A stretch of 64,000 nucleotides of DNA from Candidatus Omnitrophota bacterium (GCA_945877765.1 CAMDWQ010000001.1:86253-150252), one strand, 5' to 3'. Shown: positions 25,488-40,978, numbered from the stretch's first letter. Numbers and translations: made by a program. The notes: generated by a model from the sequence alone, not told the origin.

Positions 25488-26422
25488 AACTCGCCGAACT
25501 TGATATCCGGGACGCGTTTTTTGATGAGATCTATAGAATCGCCGCCGCGGACAAAAATGTCGTGTTTTTGACCGGCGATATGGACGCCTTTTCACTCCGC
25601 AAATTTAAACAGGATTTTCCTTCACGTTTTATCAATACCGGAGTCGCCGAACAGAATATGATCTGTGTGGCGTCCGGCCTTGCCGCCTGCGGGAAAAAAG
25701 TTTTTGTGTATGGGATCAACACCTTTGTGTCGATGCGGTGTTTTGAGCAGATCAAGATCAATATTTGCAGCATGAATCTTCCGGTGGTGATCATCGGCGC
25801 GGGGGCAGGGTTCTCTTTTGGGTTTGACGGCCCGACGCATCATGGCACGCAGGACGTGGCGGTGATGCGCGCCTTGCCGGAAATGGAAATTTGGAACCTG
25901 GCGGATGCCGGAATTGCCGCCGCTTGCGCGAAATTAGCCGCCAAAACAACTCATCCCATGTATATTCGCCTCGACAAGGGAAAATTTCCTGATTTTTATC
26001 AACCAGAAGAAAATATATCTGCCGGTTTTAAGCTATTAAAACCTCTTCAAAAAATAAATCTTGTCAGCACCGGTTTTATGACCCAGCAGGCGATGCAAAC
26101 CGCCCAAGCATTGGAACTTCAGTCGGTCTCCGTCGGGGTCGTCGATGTTTCACGACTCAAACCTTTAAATCAAGATTTAATCAAACAACTGATTGCTTCA
26201 TCCCATAAGATCTTCACGCTGGAAGAACATTGCCTGACGGGCGGCCTGGGATCTATTTTAAATGACGCGCTGGCTTCCCACAAAAACTCTATCACGCTTG
26301 AGCGGCTGGCGATCCCAGACCTTCAGTTTTTAGCTTACGGCAGCCGCGAATGGTTTCATCAAAGCAACGGGTTGGATGTTCAAAGCATCACCAACCGTAT
26401 CCAAAAATTGATTTCACGATGA
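25481..26422 (+). CDS. transketolase, C-terminal (pyrimidine-binding plus C-terminal) subunit
   Basis: FINTGVAEQNMICVASGLA and GPTHHGTQDVAVMRALP. 313 aa. Overlaps the N-terminal subunit gene. Confidence 0.85.
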   Translation: MLKLAELDIRDAFFDEIYRIAAADKNVVFLTGDMDAFSLRKFKQDFPSRFINTGVAEQNMICVASGLAACGKKVFVYGINTFVSMRCFEQIKINICSMNLPVVIIGAGAGFSFGFDGPTHHGTQDVAVMRALPEMEIWNLADAGIAAACAKLAAKTTHPMYIRLDKGKFPDFYQPEENISAGFKLLKPLQKINLVSTGFMTQQAMQTAQALELQSVSVGVVDVSRLKPLNQDLIKQLIASSHKIFTLEEHCLTGGLGSILNDALASHKNSITLERLAIPDLQFLAYGSREWFHQSNGLDVQSITNRIQKLISR

Positions 26423-27354
26423 ACAACGAGATCCAGTGCCTGGGTTTATCGGAATTTGCCTCTCTTTTTGGATGCAAGGCGGAGGAGATTCCTCAAGATT
26501 GCGCGCAGCTTATCGCCGAAAATGATTTTCGCTATCGTGTGGCAGAAGGGAAGGAATATGAGGAAATTCTTCAAGGAGTTCTCCATAAAATTGATTCCGG
26601 CGGATTTTCAATTGCCGGGGAAGAACGCCTTCCCAATTGGGAAAAGGGATGGGGCGAAAATCTGGAAGCTTTTTTAAAAACTAAAAATATTCTGGAGCTC
26701 GTCCCAAAATATTTCAGGCCCGGCCTGCCGCTGAGGCTTTTTCAGCAGTACATTTTGCCGCTGGATCCTAATTTTGAGATCAACTGGTATTCTGTTTTCA
26801 GGCTGTGGCTTTTTAAAACTTACTTCAAGAGTAGCGGCGCTATTTATGAATTCGGCTGCGGCTCCGGTTTCAACCTTCCGGTGTTAAGCAGCCTTTATCC
26901 GGACAGGAAAGTATTTGGTTTGGACTGGTCCCAAGCATCGGTGGATATCGTCAACCAAATGGCCAAAGCCTGCCGCTGGAATATGGAAGGCCGGCGTTTT
27001 GATTTTTTTAAACCCGATAAAAGTTTTATTCTCGAGCCGTCGAGCATTGTCACCACGATCGGAGCTTTAGAACAAACCGGCCAAAAATACATGGATTTTT
27101 TGGATTATCTAGTGGATTCCAAGCCGGCGCTGGTGGTGCATGCCGAACCTACGGTCGAGTGGTATGATAAAAACAATCCCGTGGATGAGGCGGCGATACG
27201 ATTTCACAAAACACGGCGCTACTGGGAAGGATTTATCGACAAACTTCGCCAACTGGAAAAACAGGGCCGTGTGCAGGTCATAAAAACCAAAAGATCGTAT
27301 TTTGGAAGCCTGTACGTGGAAGGTTATTCTCAAACGATTTGGAAATCCGTTTAA
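26419..27354 (+). CDS. class I SAM-dependent methyltransferase
   Basis: YEFGCGSGFNLPVLS motif I and VFGLDWS. Start placed at the internal ATG at 26419, which overlaps the previous stop. Confidence 0.6.
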   Translation: MNNEIQCLGLSEFASLFGCKAEEIPQDCAQLIAENDFRYRVAEGKEYEEILQGVLHKIDSGGFSIAGEERLPNWEKGWGENLEAFLKTKNILELVPKYFRPGLPLRLFQQYILPLDPNFEINWYSVFRLWLFKTYFKSSGAIYEFGCGSGFNLPVLSSLYPDRKVFGLDWSQASVDIVNQMAKACRWNMEGRRFDFFKPDKSFILEPSSIVTTIGALEQTGQKYMDFLDYLVDSKPALVVHAEPTVEWYDKNNPVDEAAIRFHKTRRYWEGFIDKLRQLEKQGRVQVIKTKRSYFGSLYVEGYSQTIWKSV

Positions 27355-27371
27355 AAAAAAGGGCCCCGACG

Positions 27372-28154
27372 ATGGATCTTGGGATCAAAGGAAAATACGC
27401 GCTGGTGACGGGGGGAAGTCACGGCATCGGCTTGGCGGCCGCACGGGCGCTTGCGTCCGAAGGTTGCCATGTGGCAATTTGCTCTCGGGACCCCAAGCGC
27501 CTTTCCACGGCTTTAAAAATTTTAAAAAAAGAGGGCGTGAAGGTTTTGGCGGTCCAGGCGGATGTGTTGGTGGCCGAAGATATTATCAACGCCACCAAAT
27601 TCATCGATAAATCTTGGAAGAAAATCGATATCCTGATTAATAACGTGGGTGGGGGCGGCCGCTGGGGCAGCGAGTCGATGGAAGAAACCTCTGAAAAGGT
27701 GTGGAGCGATGTGTTTGATAAAAACGCGACTGCTGCGGTGCGTTTTACGCGCTGGGCGATTCCACATATGCGGCGGCAGAAATGGGGCCGTATTGTCACG
27801 GTTGCTTCGGTTCACGGGAAAGAAGGCGGCGGCCGTCCGTGGTTTAACATGGCGAAGGCGGCGCAAATCAGCCTGATGAAATGCCTGTCTCTGAAGACGG
27901 ACCTGGTGCGGGATGGGATCACATTTAACACGGTGGCACCCGGCGGTATTCTGATCCCGGACACCGGCTGGGATGAAGAAAGAAAAAAGAATCCGAAGTT
28001 ATTTAAAAAAAAGGTGCTGGAAAATTTTCCGCTCGGCCGGTTGGGCACGCCGGAGGAAGTGGCTGGGGTCCTTTTGTTTTTATGCTCAAAAAATGCAAGC
28101 CTTGTGAACGGGGCGTGCATCACGGTGGACGGCGGCGAAAGTAAAAGTTTCTAA
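27372..28154 (+). CDS. short-chain dehydrogenase/reductase (SDR)
   Basis: ALVTGGSHGIGLAAARAL (TGxxxGxG) and the YxxxK region. About 260 aa. Confidence 0.85.
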   Translation: MDLGIKGKYALVTGGSHGIGLAAARALASEGCHVAICSRDPKRLSTALKILKKEGVKVLAVQADVLVAEDIINATKFIDKSWKKIDILINNVGGGGRWGSESMEETSEKVWSDVFDKNATAAVRFTRWAIPHMRRQKWGRIVTVASVHGKEGGGRPWFNMAKAAQISLMKCLSLKTDLVRDGITFNTVAPGGILIPDTGWDEERKKNPKLFKKKVLENFPLGRLGTPEEVAGVLLFLCSKNASLVNGACITVDGGESKSF

Positions 28155-28162
28155 AAAATCGA

Positions 28163-29161
28163 ATGATCCCTGAAAAAATCTTAAATTCTTTAAAAAATTC
28201 AAATGCGCTGGTGACGGGCGGCACGGGTTTAATCGGCCGGCAGGTCGTAGAACTCTTGGAAGAGGCCGGCGCGCATGTCCGCATTGTTTCTCTAGATCGC
28301 CTGAGGGTGAGCGGGAAAGCGGAACACGTTTATGGGGACCTGACGGATTTCTCTTTTTGCCGGGACACGGTCAAAGGAATGGATTATGTGTTTCATTTGG
28401 CCGGCATCAAGGGCTCGATTGAAGTGACCAAGGCCCGGCCGGCAAGTTTTTTTGTGCCGCTTTTGATGATGAATACGAATCTTCTGGAAGCCTGCCGCCT
28501 CCAAGGCGTCAAAAGGACGGTTTATACCAGTTCCATCGGCGCTTATCCCAGCGCTGAAATTTTTCGTGAAGACGATGACCACGCGGACGCGCCGCCGATG
28601 GATTTTTTCCCGGGGTGGGCCAAAAGAATGGCGGAGCTTCAGTTAAAATCCTATCAACTCGAATACGGCCATGAAAATTTCGCGGTGGTCCGGCCTTCCA
28701 ATGTTTACGGTCCCGGGGATAATTTTGATCCCGAAAACGCTATGGTGATTCCGTCTCTGATCGCGCGTGTTTTTCGCAAGGAAAATCCCGTCATGATTTG
28801 GGGGGACGGCTCGGCGGTGCGTGATTTTGTGTATAGCCGTGACGCGGCCGAGGGCGTCATTCTCGCCCTTATCCACGGCACCGCGCCGGGTTTTGTGAAT
28901 ATAGGCAGCGGCGAGGGAGTTAGCATCCGTGGGCTGGTTGAAACCCTGCGAACGGTCACCCCTTTTGAATACCAATTTGATATCGACAAATCTTCCGGTT
29001 TTCCACGGCGCGTCATGGATATCACGCGAGCCCGGCAGAAAATCGGTTACGCGCCCAGCGTCTCATTGGCGGAAGGGCTGAAGAAGACCTGCGATTGGTT
29101 TATGGCCCACAAAGATGAATATCTTTTAAGAAAAAATTATTTTGCCGATGCCGCTTCCTGA
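28163..29161 (+). CDS. NAD-dependent epimerase/dehydratase (GDP-L-fucose synthase-like extended SDR)
   Basis: ALVTGGTGLIGRQVVELL, YPSAE... and the PSNVYGPGD region. 332 aa. Confidence 0.8.
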   Translation: MIPEKILNSLKNSNALVTGGTGLIGRQVVELLEEAGAHVRIVSLDRLRVSGKAEHVYGDLTDFSFCRDTVKGMDYVFHLAGIKGSIEVTKARPASFFVPLLMMNTNLLEACRLQGVKRTVYTSSIGAYPSAEIFREDDDHADAPPMDFFPGWAKRMAELQLKSYQLEYGHENFAVVRPSNVYGPGDNFDPENAMVIPSLIARVFRKENPVMIWGDGSAVRDFVYSRDAAEGVILALIHGTAPGFVNIGSGEGVSIRGLVETLRTVTPFEYQFDIDKSSGFPRRVMDITRARQKIGYAPSVSLAEGLKKTCDWFMAHKDEYLLRKNYFADAAS

Positions 29162-30140
29162 TTTAAAAAAATCAAAAATCGTTGTCGCCGGAGCCTCGGG
29201 GTTCATCGGCTCTAATTTGGTGCGGTATTTTTTGAATCAAAATTACTCGGTCCGGGGGATTTTACGTCAGCGGCCTCCCGTGGTTGTCGATGACCGTATC
29301 GAATATGTTCACGCGGATCTTGCGACCAAGGAGGGCTGCCGCCTGGCGGTTCGTGACGCGGACTATCTGTTTATGTGTGCGGCTCAGACGGCCGGCGCGG
29401 CGGTAATGGCCGCCGACCCGCTCTCGCAAGTGACCCCGAATGTGCTGATTAATACACAACTTTTACAAGCCGCCTATGAGGCGCGGATCAAAAAAACCGT
29501 TTTTATCTCCAGCAGCGCCGCCTATCCTCCCACAGGCATTACCCCGGTCAAGGAGGAGCAGATGTTCGACGGTGATCCGCATGAAGTTTATTTTAGCGTG
29601 GGCTGGATGAAGCGCTATGCCGAAATTCTCTGCAAGATTTACGCTCAAAAAGTTCCCAACCCCATGCCGGTCGCGGTGGTGCGGCCATCCAATATTTACG
29701 GGCCTTTCGATAAATTTGATTTTAAAACTTCCCATGTCACCGCCGCGCTCTTACGGCGCGTCGTCGAACGCCACCAACCCCTGGAAGTATGGGGAGACGG
29801 TTCGGATATCCGGGATTTGATTTTCGTGGATGATTTTATAGAAGGAATGATGAAAGTATTTCATGCGCCCGACCCTTACGTTGCGGTCAATCTAGCATCC
29901 GGTCAAGGCACCACTGTTCGGCAAATCCTTGAGACTTTGCTGGAGGTCGATGGTTATAAAGACGCGAATATTCGTTATCTTAAGGATAAACCCCGAACGA
30001 TTCCGGCACGTTTTGTCGATACAACATTAGCTGAAAAAAAATTTGGATTTAAACCGGCCCACTCTCTCAAAGAGGGCTTTAAAAAAACAATTTCCTGGTA
30101 TCGGATGAACCCATATGGAGGTGACCGTGTCCGCGCTTGA
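29142..30140 (+). CDS. NAD-dependent epimerase/dehydratase (second extended SDR)
   Basis: VVAGASGFIGSNLVRYF and PSNIYGPFD. 332 aa. Confidence 0.8.
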   Translation: MPMPLPDLKKSKIVVAGASGFIGSNLVRYFLNQNYSVRGILRQRPPVVVDDRIEYVHADLATKEGCRLAVRDADYLFMCAAQTAGAAVMAADPLSQVTPNVLINTQLLQAAYEARIKKTVFISSSAAYPPTGITPVKEEQMFDGDPHEVYFSVGWMKRYAEILCKIYAQKVPNPMPVAVVRPSNIYGPFDKFDFKTSHVTAALLRRVVERHQPLEVWGDGSDIRDLIFVDDFIEGMMKVFHAPDPYVAVNLASGQGTTVRQILETLLEVDGYKDANIRYLKDKPRTIPARFVDTTLAEKKFGFKPAHSLKEGFKKTISWYRMNPYGGDRVRA

Positions 30141-30660
30141 AGTAGAAAAAACAGATTTGGACGGGGTGCTTTTGATTAAACCGTCGACGCATTTTAAAGA
30201 TTTCCGGGGTGAATATGTCGAGACGTATAATGAAAAACTTTATCAAGAAGCCGGGATTGACCTCCATTTTGTGCAGGATGATATTTCGACATCCAAAAAA
30301 AATGTGCTGCGCGGTATCCACGGGGACCAGAAGACGTGGAAGCTGGTCACCTGTCTTTACGGCGAGTTTTATATGGTTGTCGTTAACTGGGATCCGGCCT
30401 CCCCTCAATATAAAAAATGGACCTCGTTTGTTCTTTCCGATAAAAACCGGCATCAAGTTTTGATTCCGCCTAAATTCGGCAACGGGCATCTGGTTTTGTC
30501 GGAACAAGCAGTGTTTCATTACAAACAATCCACCTACTATGACCGCGCGGGTCAATTTACACTCCGTTGGAATGATGCTGATTTAAACCTTCGCTGGCCT
30601 ATCCAGAGCCCTATCTTGTCCGAAAGAGACGGCGGAATACCCACCATGTCGTCTGCCTAA
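30115..30660 (+). CDS. RmlC-like cupin, nucleotide-sugar 3,5-epimerase (dTDP-4-dehydrorhamnose 3,5-epimerase family)
   Basis: LLIKPSTHFKDFRGEYVETY..., RGIHGDQKTWKLVTCLYGEFYMVVVNW and PPKFGNGHLVLSEQAV match the RmlC family. 181 aa. Confidence 0.85.
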   Translation: MEVTVSALEVEKTDLDGVLLIKPSTHFKDFRGEYVETYNEKLYQEAGIDLHFVQDDISTSKKNVLRGIHGDQKTWKLVTCLYGEFYMVVVNWDPASPQYKKWTSFVLSDKNRHQVLIPPKFGNGHLVLSEQAVFHYKQSTYYDRAGQFTLRWNDADLNLRWPIQSPILSERDGGIPTMSSA

Positions 30661-30906: not shown

Positions 30907-33900
30907 ATGGATGAACAAAAAAAATTCAAAACTCAATATGGAAATAGACTGAAAGCAGTCTCTGCCTTCCTGGTAGTAGCTTTTTTATCTCAGGACGTGG
31001 CTTATGCGATTGGCGGCATTAATTTTAATGCAGATTCCGCCAAGGTAGCCTCTAATCCAATAACATTCTCAAATGACACCGCCATCGTCCGTAAATTTTC
31101 TCAACGTTCGGACGAAATGGTGATCAACATCCAAGACGCCCACCAGAAGCTGGGGGCACAGCAAAGCATTTCCTCTATTCTCGATCGGCTTGTCTGGCAA
31201 TACGATCTTAAGCTCATCGCGGTAGAAGGAGGTAGTGGGGATGTCGATACCTCTGCTCTATCTAGTCTGCCCGATGAGGCGCTCCGGAAAAAAACGGGTG
31301 AGCACCTTCTCAAGGAGGGCCTTATTTCAGCCGCTGAGTTTTATTCGATTGTTTCGGGTAATCAAGTGCGTCTCTACGGCGTCGAAGAGGATGCTGTTTA
31401 CCGAGAAAATTTGGAAGTCTTTAAAAAGTTAATTGACGATAAAAAAGACCTTCGGCGCGAGTTGACACTTTTGCAGGGCGCGCTACGCTCGCTGGAAGAA
31501 AAAATTTATAGCCCCGCGCTCAAGGAGCTTGAAGCCAAAAAGATGAAGCATTTCCGCGGCCAGATGAAGTTTGCCGAGTACTGGGAATATTTTAGTAGCC
31601 TTGCGGCGCGTCTGGGGATTGCATTGGACCCATACCCCAATCTTGAAAAAATTTCAAGCACGGTGGTCTTGGAAAAAAATATCAATTTCTCTGCCGCTTC
31701 CGCAGAGCGTGAGTCTCTTATCAAAAGACTTAGCGCTGAATTACCAAAGCTATCGCTTGAGAAGCTTATTTTTGCTCTGCTTGAATTCAAACAAGGGAAA
31801 ATGGCCTCTGGCAAGTTTTACAAGAACCTCGTGGAGATGGCCGAAGCGGCGTCGATTGAGCCAACAGCATACAGCAATATGAGCACTTATTCGCGGTATG
31901 TATCACTCTACGAGGCGATCGATCTTTTGGCGGTATTTGATGAAGCGGAGCGTTTTGAAAGTAAAATCCGGGAGGCTCTTTTTGCCAACTTAGAGGAACG
32001 CAATCTCTGGGTCCTGACCCATCGAGTGGGCATTGTTTCAAGGCTTTTGGATGTGACGCTGGATTCGGCGGATTATGAACAAATCAAATCCCACAAGGCT
32101 GATTTCCAGATCAAGAAACTAAAAGAAGATCTTTTTTCTCTGGGTGTGCGGCATGGATTTTCCACAGCAGGGGACGTTGATTTTGACCGTCTTGAAAAAA
32201 ATATGCCCCTGGCTCTGCGCTTTTATGAACTAGCGTCGCAGAGAAACCAGATTCTTTTAGCCAACACACTTAAAAAAATGCGCCGGGAAAAAATTCAGGT
32301 GGCGGCACTCGTGACAGGAGGTTTCCATTCGGACGGTATCGCCAAACTCATGGAGGAAGAAAAAATTTCCTGTCTTGTGGTGATGCCCAAGTTTGATGAG
32401 AAGTCGCCGGACCGGCCTTATATCTCAGTATTAACTAAAAAGCCTAAAGAATATGAGCAGCTTTTTAAGGATTCTGATTTTTATCTGACCGCGGAAGTAT
32501 TTTTTAATCATTTTCCTGATTACGGCGAAGATCGGTTGGCGGCGCTGGTGGCAAGTCTAGACCGAGTCAGCGGAAAAAATCATTTCACCTCAGGCGTGGT
32601 CCATCAACGCGATTTTGTCAGGCGCTGGGTGCGTGGTTTACGCGCACGGACGCGTGATATACAAAACCCTGCGGTTTCTGTCAAAAAATTAAATCAGGCC
32701 CTGCGAGGTGTGTCTGCAGTCAGGCGCGAAGGCGATTTTTACCGTGTGAAAGTAGGCGAGCGAGAATTTAACGTACCACTGGATCAAGCTAGCCGTGAGA
32801 TTGATGGTAGTCCGATAGAAATCACAGCGGTCAAGGCGCCCGCTTCATTTTTGATAGAGACCGATAGCCGGCAAGCCACTGCCCAAGACGTCTCGGCGTT
32901 GGTGAATCAGTTTTCATCCAAAGTTTCTGTGTGGACGATGCCTGGTTCCACGCCAAGAACGGTGCGGGTTGCTGTCAATCGTGAAGTGGAGCGGTTTGAA
33001 AGGGCGCGGAAGGTTCGCTTTACTCCCCAACAGAAAAGAAGTTTTCAAACGGTGGGCGCGCGTCTATGCGGGCCGAATCTTACCGCCCGGCTCCGAGCGC
33101 TTCCTGAGAATCAACAGCCAAGTATTCGATTCCAGCCGTCTAAAAAGCCGTCGATCGATGTTATTCGATCTCCTCGACAAAGAGAAGTTGTCCGGGCACA
33201 GCTTGAGATTGCCGAGCTTCGTGGAGGGCAGTCGGGAGGCGCTGCCATCATGGCCCTTGATTCCAAGACTGGGCATGTGGTGGTTGTTTTTGGAAAAACT
33301 AAAAAACGCAAGCGTGAGAGTCCCTCTGTGGCCGTGGATGCGGCCGTAGAAAAACTTGTTTTAAAAGCAGCTAACGCCGGGATTGTCAGTCTTCCGGAAT
33401 ATGACGCCGAGATGTCTCATTTGCGCTGGGCCACTGGTGGTGAAAGTACCTGGGATAATGCTCAGCCACACTGGCATGAAGAGCCCAAAAACGTTGCCGT
33501 TTTTGGAGTTTCCCGTCAGGAACACGGGGGTCTCAAGCTAGGAAGCAAGATTATGACCGTTTTTAATATTATCCAACACAACGGCGACCTGGATTATCTG
33601 AAAAAATCATGGCTTGTTAACGGTATTCAACAGGTGGTGACTTTGCCTTTCAGAAAAGCTCGCGAGATTTATGTCAGGCTCATGCCGCGCTCCAAATCAC
33701 GAGGTACGTCCGACTCCAAAACGATCGCCGAAGACGTTGATTTTGAGCTCACCCAAGGGCAGGTTTGGAAATCGGTGCGTTATGCTTATGGAAAAAATTT
33801 TCATGACAATAGCCATCAAGATCTCCCTTTTAGTGAAAAAACGATCAATGATGCCTCTGCGATTGCCACCAGATGTATTGAGGAGGTTGGTCTGGATCTG

Positions 33901-36900
33901 GGGGATCGGTTTTTCAATCCTGGCGCAGTCACGCTAACCGATGCCAGTCCAGAAGCCGTGCTCGCGGTCAAACAGAGAGTGTTTGACCGGTTTAGAGACG
34001 AAAAAATATTTAATAAAAACTCTGAGCTTGAAGAATTTTCTGATGCTTTCACCAAGGCATTTTTCTATCACGACATGGCTTTTGTGATGCGTTATCTTAG
34101 CTTTGCTTTTGTGGGCACGGCGGTGGTTAATGTTATGTCGACGCTTGAGCCGCGGTGGGGGGTATTTGCCAAGACGCAGTCTTTCTCGATTGGTTTTAAC
34201 AGTGAGGGTGTTCTAGGAGCCGCCGAGCCCGAAGCGGTGACGGTACCCCTCATGCAAGATGGGGATTCAACGGCGCGGCAGATGTTTGTCCCCGATGGCT
34301 ACTACGGGACGATTGAGCAGGACCCCAGGGCGAACAATCTAATTCGTTTGCATGCCCCTTTGGTTGAATTTGACGATCTCTACCAGAGGCCAGCACCTTT
34401 ATCCGAAGGAGAGTTACACCTTTTTCCTGTCATTGGCAACCCCAAAATTGAAGTCGCCTCGGGAGATATTCGCCAGCTGGCCAGTGTGGAAAATAAAAAT
34501 GCCATCGAGGACATTCCTTCGGTGCTTAAGCGCGTGCGCGAATCGGTATTGCCCGGCGGCCGCAATCGAAAAGCACTCGATCATTTAAAAGCGCTCATCA
34601 CACGACAGGCCCAGGAGTGGATTTCGGATGAGGAGACGCTGATAGCCAAACATGCCCAAGAAGGCCGGGTGCACGAAGCTCATAAGGGAGGAAACTACAA
34701 TCTTGTTTTGTATGGCTCTGATTTTAATCTCGATCTGATTCGCCGTGTCGCCGACCAGATGCATGGCGGTATGATGGATTTGAACGTGGCTGTCATGGAT
34801 TCGGGAGAGCTTGTAGAGCTTTTTAAGAAAAAAGCCGCCGGCCGTGAAGTGCCTATCGGACCCAACACGATATTTCTAGCGGTCAGTAACTCGGGTCAGA
34901 CGCAGGCGGTCAAAGCCGCTCATAGCGAAATAGTCAAAATGCAGGAGAGGGGCCAGCTCAGAGAGGGAAACAATCTTGTTTTGACGCAGAAACTTTTCAA
35001 CGCGCTTAGCTCGGAAGGGGGCCAGGGCTATCAGCTTGAGGATGAGGTTTTGCCTTATACGTTTCTTAACCTAAGCCACATCCGTCCAGACGGTAGTATT
35101 ACCCGACGCAATTCCGAAGCAGCCAGCGTGACCACGGCGGCGACGGAGGCTGTGCTGACTGAAATGATGATCGGTGCTTACCAGGCCGTGAATGATTTGG
35201 CGCACAACTCTGCGCAGAATCCACAACAGCTAAGACCCTATAGACTCGCCAAAGATTTAACCAGCGAAGATTTTTTGGCTTTCCGTGAATTCCAGCTAGC
35301 TCACTATGAACAACAGGCGGCCAATCGCATCGGTGTCGATTCCGAAGGTCAGCCCATCACGGATTCGCCCGACCAGAAGGCACTCGGTCTGGAAGTTGAG
35401 TACCGCACTCAGTCGGTGACCGAATGGATCAAGGGATTTATGATATTCAATCTTGGCTACATCGCTTTGATTGCGTGTGTGTTGCAACTTCCTCTTTTCG
35501 GAACGGCACTGGGAAGCATTTTCAACGCCCGTTTTGACGGTGCTCTTGATGCAGTTTTCTACTTATCAGGTTTTTGGCTGACGGTGGTTTTGATTCGCTG
35601 GTGGGAGGGGCGTCCCTTGTGGGATCGTATCTTGCCTCGCGTGGAAATATTCGCCGATCACGTGGGTTATTCGAGAATCATCGAAAGATTCAATGTGGCG
35701 CTTCTTGCCAACGCGCAGGGTTTCTTGAGTCCGCTTTTTTATTCGGCGAATGTGGTGCGCGATGTATTGCACCGCTATTCGATTCGTGGCTGGCGCGGCG
35801 TCTTGTTTTATATTTATAGTCCCGACGAAACCATGGGTTTAAAAGAAGCCGGGGATGCGGACTCCGCTGGCATGGTGGCTAGCCAAGTGCGTTTTAACAC
35901 GTTCAATGCCGGCGGCCCGCACACGCATAAAATTCTTCTACAAAATTCTGCGTACAACCGTGGCATGTCCAAAAAAAGCGGTCACCAAGATGTGGGCCTG
36001 TCAGACGTTACCGATGAATTGAAGAGGAAATATAGCGGCAAAATATCCGAGACGATGCAACACTTAATCAACCGCCGCTTGGGGGATCTAAGCAATTATC
36101 TGATTCCGGAAATCGTGATCGGCTACCGGCGCGCGGTTAATCTCTCGCGTTTTTTTAATCATGTGCTGGACGAAATTTTCCTAAGCTCTCTTGTGGGTAA
36201 GTGGCCGGCTTCCGTGGTACGAAAAACTTTGGTGCTTGTGGGTTTTGGATGGTTTCACGAGACGTTTCCTATCGGCGAAAGCTCAGGACGCGCGGGGATT
36301 CTTTCTACCTCTCACCCGGTGAACTCAAGCCTTCCAGGTGAAGACTCCGCCCGGATGTTGACTCGACGGGAAGCTGCTCAACAAAACCGTAAAAAAGTTT
36401 TAAGTGAGCTTGTCAGTGCTGGCGCCAAGGAAATGGAGCAGTCTCAGATTTTGGAAGAGATAGAAGCTGAGGCCATTGTAATCCAAAAAGTAGCTGAGCG
36501 TACCTATCAGAGAGAAATTGCAGAGGCGGAAGAAGTTTTTGCAAATAAGGTGAGGACGATAGAGGAGCATTTAACTAACGCAAAAGCTTTGACAAATAAT
36601 CCTCTTATAGACGATTCTTTCTCCCCAAGTCTTGATGCGAGAGCGGATCGTGCTCGCGAAGCGGCAGTGGCAGTGAGGGAAGCCACGATGGAACAAGCGG
36701 GAAAAAGAAGAGAAGCGGCGTCAGAAAATGCAATTTTGGACGCGGCTTCACCCAAAATCAAGGCGCTGAAAGCTAACCGGCATTTGCCTGTCCCGGGGAA
36801 TCCGGATCGTATCGAGCTTAGCCAGACATTTGACGTGGTGCAGGCCGATGGGGGCATGGATGTCTATTTTCCTGGTGGAAAAAGAATCTCATTTAGTCTT

Positions 36901-39900
36901 GCGCCCGGCGGCCAATATTATCAAGGCGACAACTCACACCCTTCGGTGAAAGCGGTACGGCAGGTATACAAGGGACAACCAATGCTCGTTATTAGTGGAG
37001 ATCTTTCTTCGGTATGGAAAGAGCATAATCCTGAATATGATCTTGTGCTTCCTCTCGTCGACCAGGGTTCTGCTACCGGAGCTCGTCTGAGTAGCGGCGC
37101 TTTTCTTATCAAAAAAGGCATGCTTTTAGACCCAACCGAATTGGTAAGACCGCAAGAGGTAATCCCAAATGAAGTGTCGGGCAAAGCATATCTAGTCAAA
37201 AGATCCCCCGATGCTGTCGTCGCGGAGTCTTCGATCCGTCCATTCACAAGCGAGCCTTCTGCCGCGTTAAAGAGTGTCATTGCTAAACGTAAAGCATGGT
37301 TTTCAGAAGGAGCGCTCCGTTTATTAGGGATATCATTTCTCTCCGTTGTCATCTGGATTTTTGTGGATATGAACAGCCGCTCAACTAGAAAATCGTTAAG
37401 CACTTCAGCGCATGAAAATAATCCTCCGGCTGCCGCGGCTCTGGAAGAAAAGCCTTTAGTGCCAGAGTCTTCCCCGGTCGTCCCCTCGATAAACCAGGTG
37501 CAGGTTGTGGCAGGGGAGCACTTAAGAAAGGACTTGGCATCCGTGCTAGAAAAATCAAAATCGGAAGAAGAGAAAGCCGAGGAGCTAAAAGCCGCAAAAG
37601 AAATAGCCGAGACGGAACTGGCTTTGCTGGAGCAAGAAAAAAAACAAACTCAAGATGAGCTTGCGATTGTCTTTGCCAAAGAGCAAGTGGCAGAAGAAGA
37701 AAAAAATTCTGCTAGCCATGCACTGGAGGCGGCAAACACCCAGCGCGAACTATTCATCAAGCAAGCCTCACTCGTGGATCAGGAGATAGCGGCCATGGAC
37801 GAGGCGCAATTGCAGAAAGGTGCGGATGTACCGGTTAGTATCAAATCAGAAAGAAAAAAATTGTCGGCCGCCGATCTTGATCGGGCCGCAAGATCTACAG
37901 AGGAAGTTTTGAAATTCCAACCCGCTTTAAGTCCTTATACAAAAGAGCTTCTGTCTAACGGTGTGCTTCACAAGATCAATGAGAAATGGTCTTTTAAGCG
38001 ATTTGAAAGTCCTCAAAGAACCACTTGGTGGCCGTTGACCGAGCAACATCTTGAAGGCGTTAAAACACTTGAGCAGCATTGGAGAGATTCACGTCAAACG
38101 CTGACCGATGCTGGAGTCAACCGCAAGGAAAATGGCGAGTTTTGGGTCTCGGTAGATGGCACCAATTTCAAAATGCCCTTATTGGGAACCGATTTAGTAG
38201 GCATTTATTATCCCCAGAATAAAACAAAAGGTCAGCCTCAACTTTATTTTGTACAACTGGGCCGTGCGGCTTCTGCGAAAATCACACAACAAATCGCTAC
38301 CGAGAATTCTTTGGCGAGAATCGAGGCTGAAAAGAAAGCCCAGGAAGCTATCGAGAGTCACCGTCTTTTAATCGAGAAGAAAGCAGCGATTGATGTTCAA
38401 CATTTAGTGGTCGAGCAATCGATCAAGAGTTTTGGTGAGGAGATTCAAACAGCGGACGAAAAATGGCTAGGATTGAAAAACAAAGAGACCGAGCTCCAGC
38501 GGCTGATTCATTCTATTCAGATCGAAGAAGGTCGGGAAAAGCTGTTACAGCTTACTCACGAGGAAGAGAAGTCGCGTTCCGATGCCGATGAGTTGAAGAC
38601 TCAAGCGAAAAACCTCCAGCGGCAATTAGACGAAGCCCAAAAAAATATTCAATCAACAGAAAAGCCGAACACCTCAGAGACAACGCCGCCCGCCACTGCT
38701 TCGGTTTCGGAGCTTGCACCGCTTTTCAAAAAAGCTCTACAGGCTGATAATTTTATTCAATTCAGAGATCTTGAAAATAAATTTCTGGAACGCCTAGCCA
38801 AACTAAAACGAGGCGACAAAGACAAATTTTCTAAAGATGTCTTGGTGCTGCGCCAATTTCGCCAGTGGCACCTGTCCGTGAAGCGGATTAATGAGGCGAA
38901 GGCCCGAGCAAAAAATGCGGCAGCCACCGGTGATCTTGCGGCTTATCGCCGGGCACTCGGGCAATTTTATAATCACTTGGAAGTTTTGCGCGGTGTCGAA
39001 GAAAAGCTCCCGCCCGGACACCACTTTGTTAACTTCGACAAGGCGGCCAATAGCATTGTTTCGGCGGGAAAAGTATTTGGGGGTCGTAGTCCCGCGTCAC
39101 AGAAAATTGCCCGTCAAATTTTATCGCTTGCCGTCGCATCGACGGCGTCGGGAGGCCGTCTTGCGGCATCTTTTTCAACGGTAAACAACAGGAAATTTAA
39201 TCTTCTATTTCTGGTACCGCCGGGGGTCAGTGTCCAACAATTCTCGCGCCAAAATATCGATTTTAGAACCAGTCTTGGTCCAGCGGCATCGCGATTTAGC
39301 ACGCGCTACGCGCCAACGAGTGTTTATACCGAGCGTTTTCTCCGAGATAAAAATTACCCCGTGGATGCTATTTTGGACAGCACCTCGTCAACGCCTGAAA
39401 GTACTTTGCTACTTTTGACCAAACTTGCCGAAACGGATGCGCGGACGTTTTCAACACTCTATCCTTTCGTACAGCGTCTTCTGGCTCGTCCGGAAAATAT
39501 TTCTCGCTTGTCTTGGGCGGAGGAAGCGCTTCTGGCGGTGTGGGTTGAACAAACTCTACCCAATCCTGCTCCAAGGAGAACATTTGTCTCATCGGGACGT
39601 CTAGTCGCTCAACCTGAAATATTAACCAATCAAGCCGAGCAGGGCGGGCATTCTTCAGAAGTGCTTGCCTCGATACTGGATCAGGCGATGGCTCATACGA
39701 TACTTGCAGAAACTAAAGCAGAAAAAAATTCTGCACGGATCGACCTTCAAACGGCAACTGAAAATATTCTTCAATATCTTTCCCCATCATCCGCCGAAGA
39801 CGGAAGACTCGTATTTTCCGGCAAAGCCAATGCTTTGGCGCTTCAACTGGCTTCGACACAGCGCTCGCGCTATGCGCTTGTGGATCCCAGCTATCGCGTG

Positions 39901-40476
39901 GTTATTCCGGACGTTGCAGGCCAAGCGCGTAAAACGATTGTGACAGAGCTGGATGTGTTTGCCAAAGACGGGGCAGGAGTGCCTTGGAGTTACCGCATGG
40001 AGAATTTAGACCGTAAAGTTCCCGGAGTTTTTAATCACGTCTTATGGGTCAACGATTCTTCCATCCGCTCTCTGGCCGAATTGATCCGGCGGTATCCGCA
40101 GGCGGCGATTTTTGGAGACCAGGTGATTTTTGCGCCAAGCGCCAAAACACACAAAGATATTTACCAGGCACGCGGCACCGTCGCCATCGACGGCGAATCT
40201 ATCGTCCTTACGTCTAAGCCCGGCATGCTCGATGAGGGAACTCAGTCCGTTAGCGATGTCAGGCCCGCGATGGTTTTGGCTTTGGATGCGCAGGCAAAAT
40301 CTACCATCCGGTTTATGGAGGCCGGGGCGAGATACTTGCTGAATCATTCAGCATTGCCAGCATACGTATTTCGTCAACCCGACGGAAGCCTTGTTTTCAG
40401 ACTTCCGAATATAGTGCCTCTGGATTATATTCTTGAAAATCAGAGAGCTGCCCGAACCGCTGAAATGTCCGCTTGA
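30907..40476 (+). CDS. giant secreted protein A (3189 aa); conserved N-terminal module shared with B and C, GlmS-like segment, TM hairpins, long coiled-coil region
   Basis: Signal peptide MDEQKK...AVSAFLVVAFLSQDVAYA. Motifs IQDAH, LVEGGSGD and TGGFHS are shared with the two paralogues. HLRWATGGESTWDNAQPH (Ntn amidotransferase-like) and LAVSNSGQTQAVKAA (SIS-like) occur internally. Hydrophobic stretches around aa 1510-1570. E/K/A-rich heptad regions around aa 1850-2550. Confidence 0.8.
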   Translation: MDEQKKFKTQYGNRLKAVSAFLVVAFLSQDVAYAIGGINFNADSAKVASNPITFSNDTAIVRKFSQRSDEMVINIQDAHQKLGAQQSISSILDRLVWQYDLKLIAVEGGSGDVDTSALSSLPDEALRKKTGEHLLKEGLISAAEFYSIVSGNQVRLYGVEEDAVYRENLEVFKKLIDDKKDLRRELTLLQGALRSLEEKIYSPALKELEAKKMKHFRGQMKFAEYWEYFSSLAARLGIALDPYPNLEKISSTVVLEKNINFSAASAERESLIKRLSAELPKLSLEKLIFALLEFKQGKMASGKFYKNLVEMAEAASIEPTAYSNMSTYSRYVSLYEAIDLLAVFDEAERFESKIREALFANLEERNLWVLTHRVGIVSRLLDVTLDSADYEQIKSHKADFQIKKLKEDLFSLGVRHGFSTAGDVDFDRLEKNMPLALRFYELASQRNQILLANTLKKMRREKIQVAALVTGGFHSDGIAKLMEEEKISCLVVMPKFDEKSPDRPYISVLTKKPKEYEQLFKDSDFYLTAEVFFNHFPDYGEDRLAALVASLDRVSGKNHFTSGVVHQRDFVRRWVRGLRARTRDIQNPAVSVKKLNQALRGVSAVRREGDFYRVKVGEREFNVPLDQASREIDGSPIEITAVKAPASFLIETDSRQATAQDVSALVNQFSSKVSVWTMPGSTPRTVRVAVNREVERFERARKVRFTPQQKRSFQTVGARLCGPNLTARLRALPENQQPSIRFQPSKKPSIDVIRSPRQREVVRAQLEIAELRGGQSGGAAIMALDSKTGHVVVVFGKTKKRKRESPSVAVDAAVEKLVLKAANAGIVSLPEYDAEMSHLRWATGGESTWDNAQPHWHEEPKNVAVFGVSRQEHGGLKLGSKIMTVFNIIQHNGDLDYLKKSWLVNGIQQVVTLPFRKAREIYVRLMPRSKSRGTSDSKTIAEDVDFELTQGQVWKSVRYAYGKNFHDNSHQDLPFSEKTINDASAIATRCIEEVGLDLGDRFFNPGAVTLTDASPEAVLAVKQRVFDRFRDEKIFNKNSELEEFSDAFTKAFFYHDMAFVMRYLSFAFVGTAVVNVMSTLEPRWGVFAKTQSFSIGFNSEGVLGAAEPEAVTVPLMQDGDSTARQMFVPDGYYGTIEQDPRANNLIRLHAPLVEFDDLYQRPAPLSEGELHLFPVIGNPKIEVASGDIRQLASVENKNAIEDIPSVLKRVRESVLPGGRNRKALDHLKALITRQAQEWISDEETLIAKHAQEGRVHEAHKGGNYNLVLYGSDFNLDLIRRVADQMHGGMMDLNVAVMDSGELVELFKKKAAGREVPIGPNTIFLAVSNSGQTQAVKAAHSEIVKMQERGQLREGNNLVLTQKLFNALSSEGGQGYQLEDEVLPYTFLNLSHIRPDGSITRRNSEAASVTTAATEAVLTEMMIGAYQAVNDLAHNSAQNPQQLRPYRLAKDLTSEDFLAFREFQLAHYEQQAANRIGVDSEGQPITDSPDQKALGLEVEYRTQSVTEWIKGFMIFNLGYIALIACVLQLPLFGTALGSIFNARFDGALDAVFYLSGFWLTVVLIRWWEGRPLWDRILPRVEIFADHVGYSRIIERFNVALLANAQGFLSPLFYSANVVRDVLHRYSIRGWRGVLFYIYSPDETMGLKEAGDADSAGMVASQVRFNTFNAGGPHTHKILLQNSAYNRGMSKKSGHQDVGLSDVTDELKRKYSGKISETMQHLINRRLGDLSNYLIPEIVIGYRRAVNLSRFFNHVLDEIFLSSLVGKWPASVVRKTLVLVGFGWFHETFPIGESSGRAGILSTSHPVNSSLPGEDSARMLTRREAAQQNRKKVLSELVSAGAKEMEQSQILEEIEAEAIVIQKVAERTYQREIAEAEEVFANKVRTIEEHLTNAKALTNNPLIDDSFSPSLDARADRAREAAVAVREATMEQAGKRREAASENAILDAASPKIKALKANRHLPVPGNPDRIELSQTFDVVQADGGMDVYFPGGKRISFSLAPGGQYYQGDNSHPSVKAVRQVYKGQPMLVISGDLSSVWKEHNPEYDLVLPLVDQGSATGARLSSGAFLIKKGMLLDPTELVRPQEVIPNEVSGKAYLVKRSPDAVVAESSIRPFTSEPSAALKSVIAKRKAWFSEGALRLLGISFLSVVIWIFVDMNSRSTRKSLSTSAHENNPPAAAALEEKPLVPESSPVVPSINQVQVVAGEHLRKDLASVLEKSKSEEEKAEELKAAKEIAETELALLEQEKKQTQDELAIVFAKEQVAEEEKNSASHALEAANTQRELFIKQASLVDQEIAAMDEAQLQKGADVPVSIKSERKKLSAADLDRAARSTEEVLKFQPALSPYTKELLSNGVLHKINEKWSFKRFESPQRTTWWPLTEQHLEGVKTLEQHWRDSRQTLTDAGVNRKENGEFWVSVDGTNFKMPLLGTDLVGIYYPQNKTKGQPQLYFVQLGRAASAKITQQIATENSLARIEAEKKAQEAIESHRLLIEKKAAIDVQHLVVEQSIKSFGEEIQTADEKWLGLKNKETELQRLIHSIQIEEGREKLLQLTHEEEKSRSDADELKTQAKNLQRQLDEAQKNIQSTEKPNTSETTPPATASVSELAPLFKKALQADNFIQFRDLENKFLERLAKLKRGDKDKFSKDVLVLRQFRQWHLSVKRINEAKARAKNAAATGDLAAYRRALGQFYNHLEVLRGVEEKLPPGHHFVNFDKAANSIVSAGKVFGGRSPASQKIARQILSLAVASTASGGRLAASFSTVNNRKFNLLFLVPPGVSVQQFSRQNIDFRTSLGPAASRFSTRYAPTSVYTERFLRDKNYPVDAILDSTSSTPESTLLLLTKLAETDARTFSTLYPFVQRLLARPENISRLSWAEEALLAVWVEQTLPNPAPRRTFVSSGRLVAQPEILTNQAEQGGHSSEVLASILDQAMAHTILAETKAEKNSARIDLQTATENILQYLSPSSAEDGRLVFSGKANALALQLASTQRSRYALVDPSYRVVIPDVAGQARKTIVTELDVFAKDGAGVPWSYRMENLDRKVPGVFNHVLWVNDSSIRSLAELIRRYPQAAIFGDQVIFAPSAKTHKDIYQARGTVAIDGESIVLTSKPGMLDEGTQSVSDVRPAMVLALDAQAKSTIRFMEAGARYLLNHSALPAYVFRQPDGSLVFRLPNIVPLDYILENQRAARTAEMSA

Positions 40477-40519: not shown

Positions 40520-40978
40520 TTAAGGATGGTATTCCTGGACCCACTTTTGAAGTTTAGAATCATGAGGATCGTGCGAGAAATATCCTTTGATAACGAATTT
40601 TTTAAATTCTTCGTAGGGGTCCGTTTTGGAACAGGCTTTGCGAAGATGCTTTTCATCGTTTAGATAGAGGTAAAGGATTGTTTTGGGTTGATTTGAAAAA
40701 CAAAAGAACAGCCGGTATCGTTGCAAACCTTGTTTGTACCGCCGGTATTTTTTAAGCTCACCAGCTAGACGGTATTCAGGTCGGTCAGGATCTCGCGGAA
40801 TAATCTCCTGGTCCGCTTGCCGGATACGATAAGCAAATTTAACCACCTCGTGTCGTTTAAATTCCTCGTCGCTTAAATCACGGCGCAGTTCTTTGACTTG
40901 CTCTTTGAGCTTTTCAATCCTCTGGTAGTAAAATTCGTGGTAGCGGACAAGGTAACTATTTGTCATCAGCCGTGACAC
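40520..40978 (-). CDS. yhaV: type II toxin YhaV family (ribosome-dependent RNase)
   Basis: RYRLFFCFSNQPKTILYLYLNDEKHLRKACSKTDPYEEFKKFVIKGYFSHD aligns with E. coli YhaV RYRLFFRYSEKEKVIILAWMNDENTLRTYGKKTDAYTVFSKMLKRGHPPAD. Confidence 0.8.
   Translation of the reverse strand: MSRLMTNSYLVRYHEFYYQRIEKLKEQVKELRRDLSDEEFKRHEVVKFAYRIRQADQEIIPRDPDRPEYRLAGELKKYRRYKQGLQRYRLFFCFSNQPKTILYLYLNDEKHLRKACSKTDPYEEFKKFVIKGYFSHDPHDSKLQKWVQEYHP

What the first reader, a model, noticed from the sequence alone, without database searches (positions are those of the whole stretch)
33200..34990. GlmS-like (Ntn glutamine-amidotransferase plus SIS) segment embedded inside giant protein A
HLRWATGGESTWDNAQPHWHEE (nt about 33421-33480) closely matches the class-II glutamine amidotransferase signature of GlmS (HTRWATHGEPSEVNAHPH). 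About 480 aa downstream, LAVSNSGQTQAVKAAHSEIVKMQERG (nt 34873-34950) resembles the SIS phosphosugar-binding motif (ISQSGETADTLAAL). The spacing is comparable to a full GlmS. An Ntn-hydrolase needs an N-terminal Cys nucleophile, which is impossible internally unless the protein is autoprocessed. So this is either a repurposed sugar-binding module or a self-cleaving domain inside a giant secreted protein.
Basis: partly seen in the sequence, partly recalled or inferred. Interest (0 to 1): 0.6.

Follow-up and report, generated by a model that had tools for sequence, protein, structure and literature searches.

The report
Membrane GlmS-like enzyme inside giant protein
A 3189-residue membrane protein carries, from residue 721 on, a complete but very diverged copy of the sugar-aminating enzyme GlmS whose catalytic cysteine is buried mid-chain, so the protein probably has to cut itself in two to become active.

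Summary
Both motifs lie in one 3189-aa ORF (window 30907-40476, +).

They belong to a full GlmS/GFAT-type architecture spanning aa 721 to about 1700 (nt 33067-36006). It has an Ntn class-II glutaminase domain, then two SIS subdomains with a two-helix membrane hairpin between them.

- **Fold evidence.** AlphaFold2 models are confident (pLDDT 86 and 79). Foldseek's best PDB matches are full-length human GFAT1 and E. coli GlmS (E about 1e-13, both domains collinear).
- **Family.** An exhaustive HMMER search found 77 relatives, mostly giant membrane proteins. Those that carry a source name are called 'hypothetical protein', and no Pfam or NCBIfam model covers the family.
- **Cys-Gly.** It is conserved in 62 of 63 relatives.
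- **Catalytic set.** The glutamine-site residues R840, T843, N892-G893 and D936 are conserved in 67 of 67.
- **Cys position.** In relatives this Cys sits anywhere from residue 2 to residue 2180. Three members are true Met-Cys starts.

Best reading: an active Ntn amidotransferase that is matured by cleavage before Cys721. This is inferred, not shown. The acceptor substrate is unknown, because the GlmS isomerase base Glu488 has no evident counterpart. I class it as a new variant of a known kind.

The parts
30907..40476 (+). Giant ORF A, 3189 aa, host of the module
   Evidence: ORF list and translation. The identical protein is found on a metagenome contig.
30955..31020 (+). N-terminal hydrophobic, signal-peptide-like segment (aa 17-38, AYA|I)
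   Evidence: Kyte-Doolittle scan. Cleavage-site reading by eye (inference).
31024..32826 (+). Conserved N-domain of the giant family (aa about 40-640; invariant IQDAH, EG, GGFH), function unknown. It would be the large 'pro' fragment if cleavage occurs.
   Evidence: Shared with giant B (24% identity, E 2e-42) and with at least 25 homologs. No Pfam or PDB match.
33067..33075 (+). Cys721-Gly722-Pro723: candidate N-terminal nucleophile and predicted scissile bond Leu720|Cys721
   Evidence: Cys conserved in 62/63 and Gly in 63/63 homologs. The first beta-strand of the model starts at residue 18 (Gly722), and the 16 residues before the Cys are disordered. BLASTP to the Methylococcus capsulatus homolog begins exactly at this Cys.
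33067..34356 (+). Ntn (class II) glutaminase-like domain, aa 721 to about 1150, with an extra helical insertion at roughly aa 960-1050
   Evidence: AlphaFold2 model. Foldseek: GFAT1/GlmS E 1e-13, GlmS glutaminase domain 1xff TM 0.66, PurF 7e-7. HMM stretches matching GlmS 68-93 and 144-219.
33220..33240 (+). RGGQSGG (aa 772-778), counterpart of GlmS Arg26-Gly27...Gly32
   Evidence: R772 and G773 conserved 64/64, Q775 61/64, G778 64/64. Motif correspondence assigned by eye against the GlmS numbering.
33418..33441 (+). HLRWATGG (aa 838-845), counterpart of GlmS H-T-R73-W74-A-T76
   Evidence: H838, R840 and T843 conserved 67/67; position 841 is aromatic in 66/67. HMM alignment to GlmS 68-93.
33577..33588 (+). 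HNGD (aa 891-894), counterpart of GlmS Asn98-Gly99 (oxyanion hole)
   Evidence: N892, G893 and D894 conserved 67/67. BLASTP alignment to GlmS.
33709..33717 (+). SDS (aa 935-937); Asp936 is the counterpart of GlmS Asp123, which binds the alpha-amino group of glutamine
   Evidence: D936 conserved 67/67. BLASTP aligns TSDSKTIAE with SETDTEVIA.
34684..35106 (+). SIS subdomain 1 (aa about 1260-1400)
   Evidence: Five parallel strands with flanking helices in both models. Foldseek matches to SIS isomerases.
34885..34902 (+). SNSGQT (aa 1327-1332), counterpart of the GlmS phosphate loop S347-Q-S349-G-E-T352
   Evidence: S1327 56/67 (+9 Thr), S1329 62/67, G1330 57/67, T1332 59/67. HMM and hhalign alignments to GlmS 329-366.
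35428..35595 (+). Two hydrophobic helices (cores aa 1508-1531 and 1545-1563) forming a membrane hairpin between SIS1 and SIS2
   Evidence: Hydropathy peaks of 2.0 and 1.8. Two long helices in model 2 (aa 1488-1525, 1544-1567). Present in homologs.
35629..36006 (+). SIS subdomain 2 (aa about 1575-1700)
   Evidence: Second alpha/beta subdomain in model 2 (pLDDT 79.3). Foldseek aligns about 530 columns to double-SIS isomerases (AgaS 1.5e-7; GlmS isomerase domain about 1e-6, TM 0.6).
36007..36396 (+). Conserved helical extension after SIS2 (aa about 1701-1830)
   Evidence: Conserved in the close homologs. Long helix aa 1715-1763 in model 2.
37309..37365 (+). Further predicted transmembrane helix (aa 2135-2153)
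   Evidence: Hydropathy peak of 2.15.
39427..40473 (+). Conserved C-terminal domain of the giant family (aa about 2841-3189), function unknown
   Evidence: BLASTP to 8 homologs, 26-46% identity.

Best explanation
**Shown.** Residues 721 to about 1700 of giant protein A are a very diverged homolog of glucosamine-6-phosphate synthase (GlmS/GFAT). The unit is an Ntn class-II glutaminase domain followed by a tandem SIS domain. It is anchored in the membrane by a two-helix hairpin inserted between the two SIS subdomains. It belongs to an unannotated family of at least 77 cluster representatives, found as a core module in giant and mid-sized membrane proteins. Genome matches come from Planctomycetia, Omnitrophota and Methylococcaceae (including cultured Methylococcus capsulatus), and one cluster holds a Stanieria (cyanobacterial) protein.

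**Inferred.** The glutaminase half is catalytically competent. Cys721, Arg772-Gly773, Arg840, Thr843, Asn892-Gly893 and Asp936, the counterparts of GlmS Cys1, Arg26-Gly27, Arg73, Thr76, Asn98-Gly99 and Asp123, are essentially invariant. An Ntn nucleophile needs a free alpha-amino group, so the polypeptide must be cut at Leu720|Cys721. The most likely route is the autocatalytic N-to-S acyl shift typical of Ntn hydrolases. The cut would give an N-terminal fragment (aa about 39-720) and a C-terminal chain that starts with the catalytic Cys. Ammonia from glutamine would then pass to a phosphorylated sugar held by the conserved Ser-x-Ser-Gly-x-Thr loop of SIS1, at the cytoplasmic face of the membrane. 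The acceptor and product are unknown and are probably not simply Fru6P to GlcN6P.
For: **Homology**
- Family HMM against GlmS: 35.7 bits, three collinear stretches.
- Family profile against PDB: only GlmS/GFAT, E 2.3e-5.
- NCBIfam glmS models hit family member P0013 at E 1.6e-8, below the cut-off.
- AlphaFold2 models: pLDDT 86.3 with pTM 0.85, and pLDDT 79.3 with pTM 0.81.
- Foldseek: the top 26 hits are full-length GFAT1/GlmS, E 2.6e-13 to 2e-10. Double-SIS isomerases match the second model at E 1e-7 to 1e-6.

**Catalytic set**
- Cys 62/63, Gly 63/63, R772 and G773 64/64.
- R840, T843, N892, G893 and D936 all 67/67, at about 20-40% overall identity.

**N-terminal nucleophile logic**
- Distant members carry the canonical CGNFG[FLI] start motif.
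- Three members (P0049, P0076, P0043) begin Met-Cys, with an in-frame stop 3-12 codons upstream.
- In 28 of 63 relatives the Cys lies at residue 600 or later, up to 2180.
- Similarity to the M. capsulatus protein starts exactly at the Cys.
- The residues before Cys721 are disordered in the model, and the first strand follows the Cys directly.
- Class II amidotransferases are known to remove short propeptides autocatalytically (PMC9140057, read).

**Membrane hairpin**.
Against: - Cleavage has not been observed. No proteomic or biochemical data exist for any member.
- Known class-II amidotransferase propeptides are only 'a few amino acids' (PMC9140057). A 720-residue or longer pro-region has no precedent in this family.
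- The residue before the Cys is not conserved (Y, A, L, C, F, M, H, R).
- By hand alignment, the GlmS isomerase base Glu488 has no acidic counterpart (Ala in giant A, Ser in the family consensus). Lys603 and His504 could not be mapped. The synthase half may therefore be non-catalytic or use different chemistry.
- The topology of giant A is unresolved. It has a signal-like N-terminus and no transmembrane helix before Cys721, which conflicts with a cytoplasmic module.
- Sequence identity to GlmS is only about 12%.
Confidence: 0.6

Rival explanations
1. Pseudo-enzyme. The GlmS-like module is never cleaved and has no glutaminase activity. It serves as a ligand-sensing or scaffold module, for example binding glutamine and/or a sugar phosphate, within a giant membrane protein.
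For: - The nucleophile is internal in most members.
- There is no evident counterpart of the isomerase base Glu488.
- The module has large insertions and is fused to non-enzymatic regions: coiled-coil-like sequence in giant A, HEAT repeats in the giants P0001 and P0005.
- SIS and Ntn folds are reused elsewhere as sensor modules (general knowledge).
Against: - Cys-Gly is near-invariant (62/63, 63/63). The oxyanion Asn-Gly and the Arg and Asp that hold the glutamine carboxylate and amine are invariant in 67/67. This holds across sequences only about 20% identical and is more than binding alone would need.
- Members with a true Met-Cys start exist.
Confidence: 0.2
2. The module is catalytically active but not self-processed. 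Either the Cys works while internal, using another general base, or the bond before the Cys is cut in trans by a protease, possibly the conserved N-domain of the same protein family.
For: - The N-domain (invariant IQDAH, EG, GGFH) is conserved next to the module in at least 25 giants. Its motif pattern resembles TraB/Tiki-type metalloproteases from memory, which was not tested.
- The residue at position -1 is variable.
Against: - Mid-sized members such as the M. capsulatus 1357-aa protein lack the N-domain but keep an internal Cys at residue 174.
- The N-domain has no detectable match to any protease family.
- Every characterised Ntn amidotransferase uses the free alpha-amine of Cys1 (established knowledge; PMC9140057).
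Confidence: 0.15
3. Chance resemblance: two short motifs that happen to look like GlmS signatures inside an unrelated giant protein.
For: Single-sequence searches of giant A against Pfam, NCBIfam and PDB find nothing. The motif spacing differs from GlmS.
Against: Collinear fold match to full-length GlmS/GFAT at E 1e-13. The family profile hits only GlmS/GFAT in the PDB. NCBIfam glmS hits a family member. A second SIS subdomain is present.
Confidence: 0.01

Closest known systems
Glucosamine-6-phosphate synthase GlmS / GFAT (glutamine--fructose-6-phosphate transaminase, EC 2.6.1.16; PDB 2J6H, 4AMV, 6R4E)
   Same: - Same domain order: Ntn class-II glutaminase, then SIS, then SIS.
- Best structural and only PDB-sequence match.
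- Counterparts of Cys1, Arg26-Gly27, Arg73, Thr76, Asn98-Gly99 and Asp123, and of the Ser347/Ser349/Thr352 phosphate loop, are conserved.
   Different: - About 12% identity, far below the Pfam and NCBIfam thresholds.
- The Cys is internal, at residue 721 here and up to 2180 in relatives, rather than at residue 2.
- About 100-aa helical insertion in the glutaminase domain.
- Two-helix membrane hairpin between the SIS subdomains.
- No evident Glu488 equivalent.
- Embedded in giant membrane proteins.
Class-II amidotransferases made with a propeptide (MEROPS C44; e.g. Bacillus subtilis PurF, PDB 1GPH)
   Same: Same Ntn fold (Foldseek 1gph, E 7e-7). Same requirement that residues before the catalytic Cys be removed, reported as autocatalytic (PMC9140057).
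   Different: Known propeptides are a few residues long (11 in B. subtilis PurF, from memory). Here the segment before the Cys is 720 residues, with a folded conserved domain. In relatives it holds 1-4 hydrophobic helices and reaches 2179 residues.
Two-chain Ntn hydrolases that self-cleave internally (penicillin G acylase, gamma-glutamyltranspeptidase, glycosylasparaginase, acid ceramidase)
   Same: They work the way proposed here. A long N-terminal chain is released by attack of the future N-terminal nucleophile on its own preceding peptide bond (established knowledge; reviewed in PMC9140057).
   Different: They belong to different Ntn families (Ser, Thr or Cys nucleophile, other substrates). 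None is a glutamine amidotransferase with a coupled SIS acceptor domain.
Double-SIS sugar-phosphate isomerases/deaminases (AgaS 3C3J, GlmD-like 1J5X, FrlB-like 2AML)
   Same: The tandem SIS fold of aa about 1260-1700 matches them as well as it matches the GlmS isomerase domain.
   Different: They lack a glutaminase domain and a membrane hairpin.

Membership tests
GlmS/GFAT (glutamine--fructose-6-phosphate transaminase, isomerizing) | Sequence passes the curated family models (NCBIfam TIGR01135 / NF001484; Pfam GATase_6/7 plus SIS) | tested here: not met
   Giant A has no hit at E<=1-10. One of 18 family members gives a weak SIS hit. P0013 scores 33 bits against a cut-off of 381.
GlmS/GFAT (glutamine--fructose-6-phosphate transaminase, isomerizing) | Architecture: Ntn glutaminase domain followed by two SIS subdomains, collinear | tested here: met
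   AlphaFold2 models plus Foldseek matches to full-length GFAT1/GlmS (E 2.6e-13) and to double-SIS domains (E about 1e-6).
GlmS/GFAT (glutamine--fructose-6-phosphate transaminase, isomerizing) | Catalytic Cys is the N-terminal residue of the mature chain | not testable with these tools
   The Cys is encoded at residue 721. Whether it becomes N-terminal depends on cleavage, which no sequence tool can show. Three relatives encode Met-Cys.
GlmS/GFAT (glutamine--fructose-6-phosphate transaminase, isomerizing) | Glutamine-site residues Arg26, Gly27, Arg73, Thr76, Asn98, Gly99 and Asp123 | tested here: met
   R772, G773, R840, T843, N892, G893 and D936 are invariant in 64-67 homologs. The mapping comes from HMM and BLAST alignments and the GlmS numbering.
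GlmS/GFAT (glutamine--fructose-6-phosphate transaminase, isomerizing) | Sugar-phosphate loop Ser347-x-Ser349-Gly-x-Thr352 | tested here: met
   S1327-N-S1329-G-Q-T1332. Conserved in 56-62 of 67 homologs and aligned by HMMER and hhalign.
GlmS/GFAT (glutamine--fructose-6-phosphate transaminase, isomerizing) | Isomerase/synthase catalytic residues Glu488, Lys485, His504 and Lys603 | tested here: inconclusive
   Sequence and profile alignments do not reach SIS2. A hand alignment places Ala (giant A) or Ser (family consensus) opposite Glu488. No model coordinates were available for superposition.
Ntn-hydrolase superfamily, class II glutamine amidotransferase fold | Alpha-beta-beta-alpha core with the nucleophile at the start of the first strand | tested here: met
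   The model strand starts at residue 18 (Gly722), directly after Cys721, and the preceding residues are disordered. Foldseek hits include the GlmS glutaminase domain (TM 0.66), PurF, AsnS and EgtC.
Ntn-hydrolase superfamily, class II glutamine amidotransferase fold | Autocatalytic removal of the residues preceding the nucleophile | not testable with these tools
   Needs protein chemistry. Only indirect support is available: invariant catalytic residues and Met-Cys relatives.

The most novel reading that the evidence does not exclude
The family is a previously unrecognised self-cleaving Ntn module. In giant membrane proteins of Planctomycetia, Omnitrophota, methanotrophs and cyanobacteria, a GlmS-derived amidotransferase cuts the polypeptide at Xaa|Cys. 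This removes pro-regions of hundreds to more than 2000 residues, far beyond any known class-II amidotransferase propeptide. The module then works as a membrane-embedded glutamine-dependent aminating enzyme on a phosphosugar other than the GlmS substrate. Maturation of a giant protein would thereby be coupled to a new envelope or glycan modification step.
Probability: 0.4. Interest if true: 0.8.

Novelty: new variant of a known kind. Interest (0 to 1): 0.62.

Why it matters
**For enzymology.** Class-II (Ntn) glutamine amidotransferases are textbook enzymes whose catalytic Cys is residue 1 after loss of Met or a short propeptide. This family keeps every glutaminase catalytic residue but places the Cys up to 2180 residues into the chain. 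It also threads a membrane hairpin through the SIS tandem. If cleavage occurs, it extends Ntn self-processing in this family from propeptides of a few residues to whole domains.

**For giant proteins.** It would give a concrete maturation step for giant bacterial proteins, whose biology is almost unknown.

**For testing.** Pfam and NCBIfam do not detect the family, and the members that carry a source name are called 'hypothetical protein'. A mid-sized version exists in cultured Methylococcus capsulatus, so the hypothesis can be tested directly.

Tried and rejected
- **Single-sequence searches of giant A.** Pfam, NCBIfam, PDB phmmer and PADLOC gave nothing.
- **Word-index homolog search of aa 734-1500.** No hits, although the exhaustive HMMER search later found 77 relatives. 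The index search misses this family.
- **The search for related loci with the wide alignment A1.** It worked with the closer set A2.
- **hhalign of the family profiles against one GlmS sequence.** It aligned only GlmS 152-227 and the SIS loop.
- **Attempt to build a diverse GlmS profile.** It returned only enterobacterial sequences at least 85% identical, so it was useless for mapping Glu488, His504 and Lys603.
- **Literature.** Searches found no description of the module. Two giant-gene papers do not mention it.
- **N-domain.** No PDB or Pfam match.
- **HEAT-repeat partner.** The partner protein of the Methylococcaceae homologs has no BLAST counterpart in giant A or B.
- **Source organism.** The taxonomy of the window's organism was not determined.

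Full report
**1. The observation**

The flagged interval lies inside one ORF, window 30907-40476 (+), 3189 aa. HLRWATGGESTWDNAQPHWHEE starts at aa 838 (nt 33418). LAVSNSGQT... starts at aa 1324 (nt 34876). The RWAT-type pattern occurs once in all six frames of the window.

On its own, the giant protein matches nothing in Pfam, NCBIfam, PDB sequences or PADLOC. Pairwise BLASTP to E. coli GlmS gave E 4e-5 around the RWAT motif. The GlmS sequence was recalled from memory and verified as near-identical to 4AMV (one mismatch). BLASTP also gave a weak alignment placing YNLVLYGSDFN...FLAVSNSGQT on GlmS IQILACGTSYN...ITLSQSGET, collinear with the RWAT match.

**2. Relatives**

A word-index search found none. 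An exhaustive HMMER search of 1.84 billion cluster representatives with aa 700-1700 found 77 relatives (32 at E<=1e-10). Most are 1000-5900 aa long. The shared region in the close relatives corresponds to giant A aa about 714-1686.

A profile of the family hits E. coli GlmS in three collinear stretches: GlmS 68-93, 144-219 and 329-366 (35.7 bits). Searched against all PDB sequences, the profile of alignment A1 finds only GlmS and human GFAT1 (E 2.3e-5 and 3e-3). NCBIfam's glmS models hit P0013, whose 90% cluster includes a Stanieria (cyanobacterial) protein, at E 1.6e-8. That is 33 bits against a cut-off of 381.

Pfam recognises essentially none of 18 members. The few members that carry a source name are all called 'hypothetical protein'.

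**3. Fold**

AlphaFold2 on A1 (aa 705-1500, 18 sequences) gave pLDDT 86.3 and pTM 0.85. Foldseek against the PDB returned full-length GFAT1/GlmS as the top 26 hits. E-values ran from 2.6e-13 to 2e-10 over 720-810 alignment columns. Next came PurF, the isolated GlmS glutaminase domain (TM 0.66), asparagine synthetase, MurQ and EgtC.

A second model (aa 1200-1840; pLDDT 79.3, pTM 0.81) shows four elements in order:
- SIS subdomain 1.
- Two long hydrophobic helices (aa 1488-1525 and 1544-1567). Their hydropathy cores are at aa 1508-1531 and 1545-1563.
- A second alpha/beta subdomain.
- A long helix.

Foldseek aligns about 530 columns of this model to double-SIS isomerases: AgaS at 1.5e-7 and the GlmS isomerase domains at about 1e-6 with TM about 0.6.

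So the whole GlmS architecture is present from aa 721 to about 1700. It carries an extra helical insertion in the glutaminase domain and a membrane hairpin between the SIS subdomains. The statement that the motif spacing is GlmS-like is wrong: it is 487 aa against 274 aa.

**4. The nucleophile**

It aligns with aCGPxF in the close relatives and with the canonical CGNFG[FLI] in the distant ones. In the model, the 16 residues before the Cys are disordered and the first strand starts directly after it.

Conservation across all relatives that cover each site:

| Giant A residue | GlmS counterpart | Conserved |
|---|---|---|
| Cys721 | Cys1 | 62/63 |
| Gly722 | Gly2 | 63/63 |
| Arg772-Gly773 | Arg26-Gly27 | 64/64 |
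| His838 | His71 | 67/67 |
| Arg840 | Arg73 | 67/67 |
| Thr843 | Thr76 | 67/67 |
| Asn892-Gly893 | Asn98-Gly99 | 67/67 |
| Asp936 | Asp123 | 67/67 |

The SIS phosphate loop S1327-x-S1329-G-x-T1332 is conserved in 56-62 of 67. This degree of conservation at about 20-40% overall identity argues for retained glutaminase chemistry rather than mere fold reuse.

**5. Position of the Cys**

In the 63 relatives the Cys sits at residues 2 to 2180, and at residue 600 or later in 28 of them. Four begin MCGN.... For three of these I read the DNA. An in-frame stop lies 12 (P0049), 9 (P0076) and 3 (P0043) codons upstream of the ATG. For P0049 I also checked that no alternative start codon lies between the stop and the ATG. 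A fourth, P0044/P0084, has at most a 17-residue leader. The family therefore contains ordinary N-terminal-Cys enzymes as well as internal-Cys forms.

BLASTP of the Methylococcus capsulatus 1357-aa homolog against giant A starts exactly at the Cys (Mc 174 = A 721) and runs to A 1806. [quoted passage not shown] A pro-region of 720 residues, or up to 2179 in relatives, would be a large extension of that behaviour.

**6. Mechanism proposed**

Shown:
- Homology to GlmS/GFAT and the same domain architecture.
- Invariant glutaminase residues.
- A membrane hairpin.

Inferred:
- The Leu720|Cys721 bond is cleaved, most simply by the Cys itself, to free the alpha-amine that Ntn catalysis needs.
- Glutamine is hydrolysed, and ammonia passes to a phosphosugar bound at the SIS tandem.
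- The module faces the cytoplasm. The flank after the hairpin is arginine-rich (IRWWEGRPLWDRILPR, with invariant Arg positions in A3), which fits the positive-inside rule.

Not resolved:
- The acceptor. A hand alignment of SIS2 helix 1 puts Ala (giant A) or Ser (family consensus) opposite the GlmS base Glu488. Lys603 and His504 could not be mapped.
- The topology of giant A. It has a signal-like N-terminus and, unlike most relatives, no hydrophobic helix between aa 39 and Cys721.

**7. Context**

Giant A belongs to a recurrent architecture:
- A conserved N-domain (aa about 40-640; invariant IQDAH, EG, GGFH). It is also present in the neighbouring giant B and in at least 25 relatives.
- The GlmS-like module.
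- A conserved C-domain (aa about 2841-3189), found in 8 relatives.

Neither flanking domain matches anything known.

Genome-collection matches lie in Planctomycetia MAGs (best 45%), Omnitrophota and many Methylococcaceae, including cultured M. capsulatus Texas. In 11 Methylococcaceae loci the 1357-aa protein is followed at once by an 815-aa HEAT-repeat protein. HEAT repeats are also fused into the giants P0001 (on a Planctomycetia MAG contig) and P0005. Giant A lacks this part by BLAST.

Directly upstream of giant A is a roughly 17-gene nucleotide-sugar and glycan cluster on the same strand. That is compatible with a sugar-related role, but it is not conserved in the Methylococcus locus, where only the HEAT-repeat gene and one gene on the opposite strand recur next to the homolog in other loci.

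**8. Comparison with known systems, and novelty**

The module works like, and descends from, GlmS/GFAT. It fails the curated sequence thresholds, has an internal nucleophile and a membrane hairpin, and probably lacks the isomerase base. I therefore do not file it as a GlmS. The processing I propose resembles two-chain Ntn hydrolases such as penicillin acylase and gamma-glutamyltranspeptidase more than any known amidotransferase. No paper in the searchable library describes it.

Verdict: a real feature and a new variant of a known kind. It is interesting chiefly for the likely self-cleavage of giant proteins by an amidotransferase domain, which can be tested in a cultured methanotroph.

Noticed in passing
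window 14745-30660 (+): A roughly 17-gene nucleotide-sugar and glycan cluster lies directly upstream of giant A on the same strand. It includes a PMT_2-like glycosyltransferase, NTP transferase, 4,6-dehydratase, GHMP kinase, two split TPP E1/transketolase pairs, GT2, an aminotransferase, an acetolactate-synthase-like TPP enzyme, a methyltransferase, an SDR, two epimerases and an RmlC-like epimerase. The TPP enzymes suggest a branched or unusual sugar.
   Followed up: partly
window 41299-47784 (+): A second giant ORF (B, 2161 aa) shares only the N-domain with giant A (24% identity over A aa 15-509, E 2e-42). It has no GlmS-like module and no Pfam or PADLOC hit.
   Followed up: partly
window 31024-32826 (+) and homologs: The conserved N-domain has invariant IQDAH, EG and GGFH motifs and no Pfam, NCBIfam or PDB-sequence match. 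From memory the motif pattern resembles TraB/Tiki/GumN-type proteins. This was not tested.
   Followed up: partly
window 40520-40978 (-): An ORF between the two giants carries a precomputed YhaV-type toxin hit (PF11663), with a 98-aa ORF next to it. This looks like a toxin-antitoxin pair.
   Followed up: no
window 47955-49282 (-): An AbiEii-family nucleotidyltransferase toxin ORF (E 3.9e-29) overlaps an upstream 197-aa partner ORF. This looks like a type IV toxin-antitoxin / abortive-infection pair.
   Followed up: no
L004 13588-16035 and 10 other Methylococcaceae loci (L003, L006-L012, L014, L015): An 815-aa HEAT-repeat protein always follows the 1357-aa GlmS-like membrane protein. HEAT repeats are also fused into the giants P0001 and P0005. 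This gene-fusion pattern suggests a functional partnership.
   Followed up: partly
method note (vs 23): The word-index homolog search returned no hits for a query that has relatives at 35-39% identity over 900 aa in the exhaustive search. A negative result from the index search is not evidence of orphan status here.
   Followed up: yes
window 39427-40473 (+): The C-terminal roughly 350 aa of giant A form a separately conserved domain (26-46% identity in 8 giants) with no known family match.
   Followed up: no
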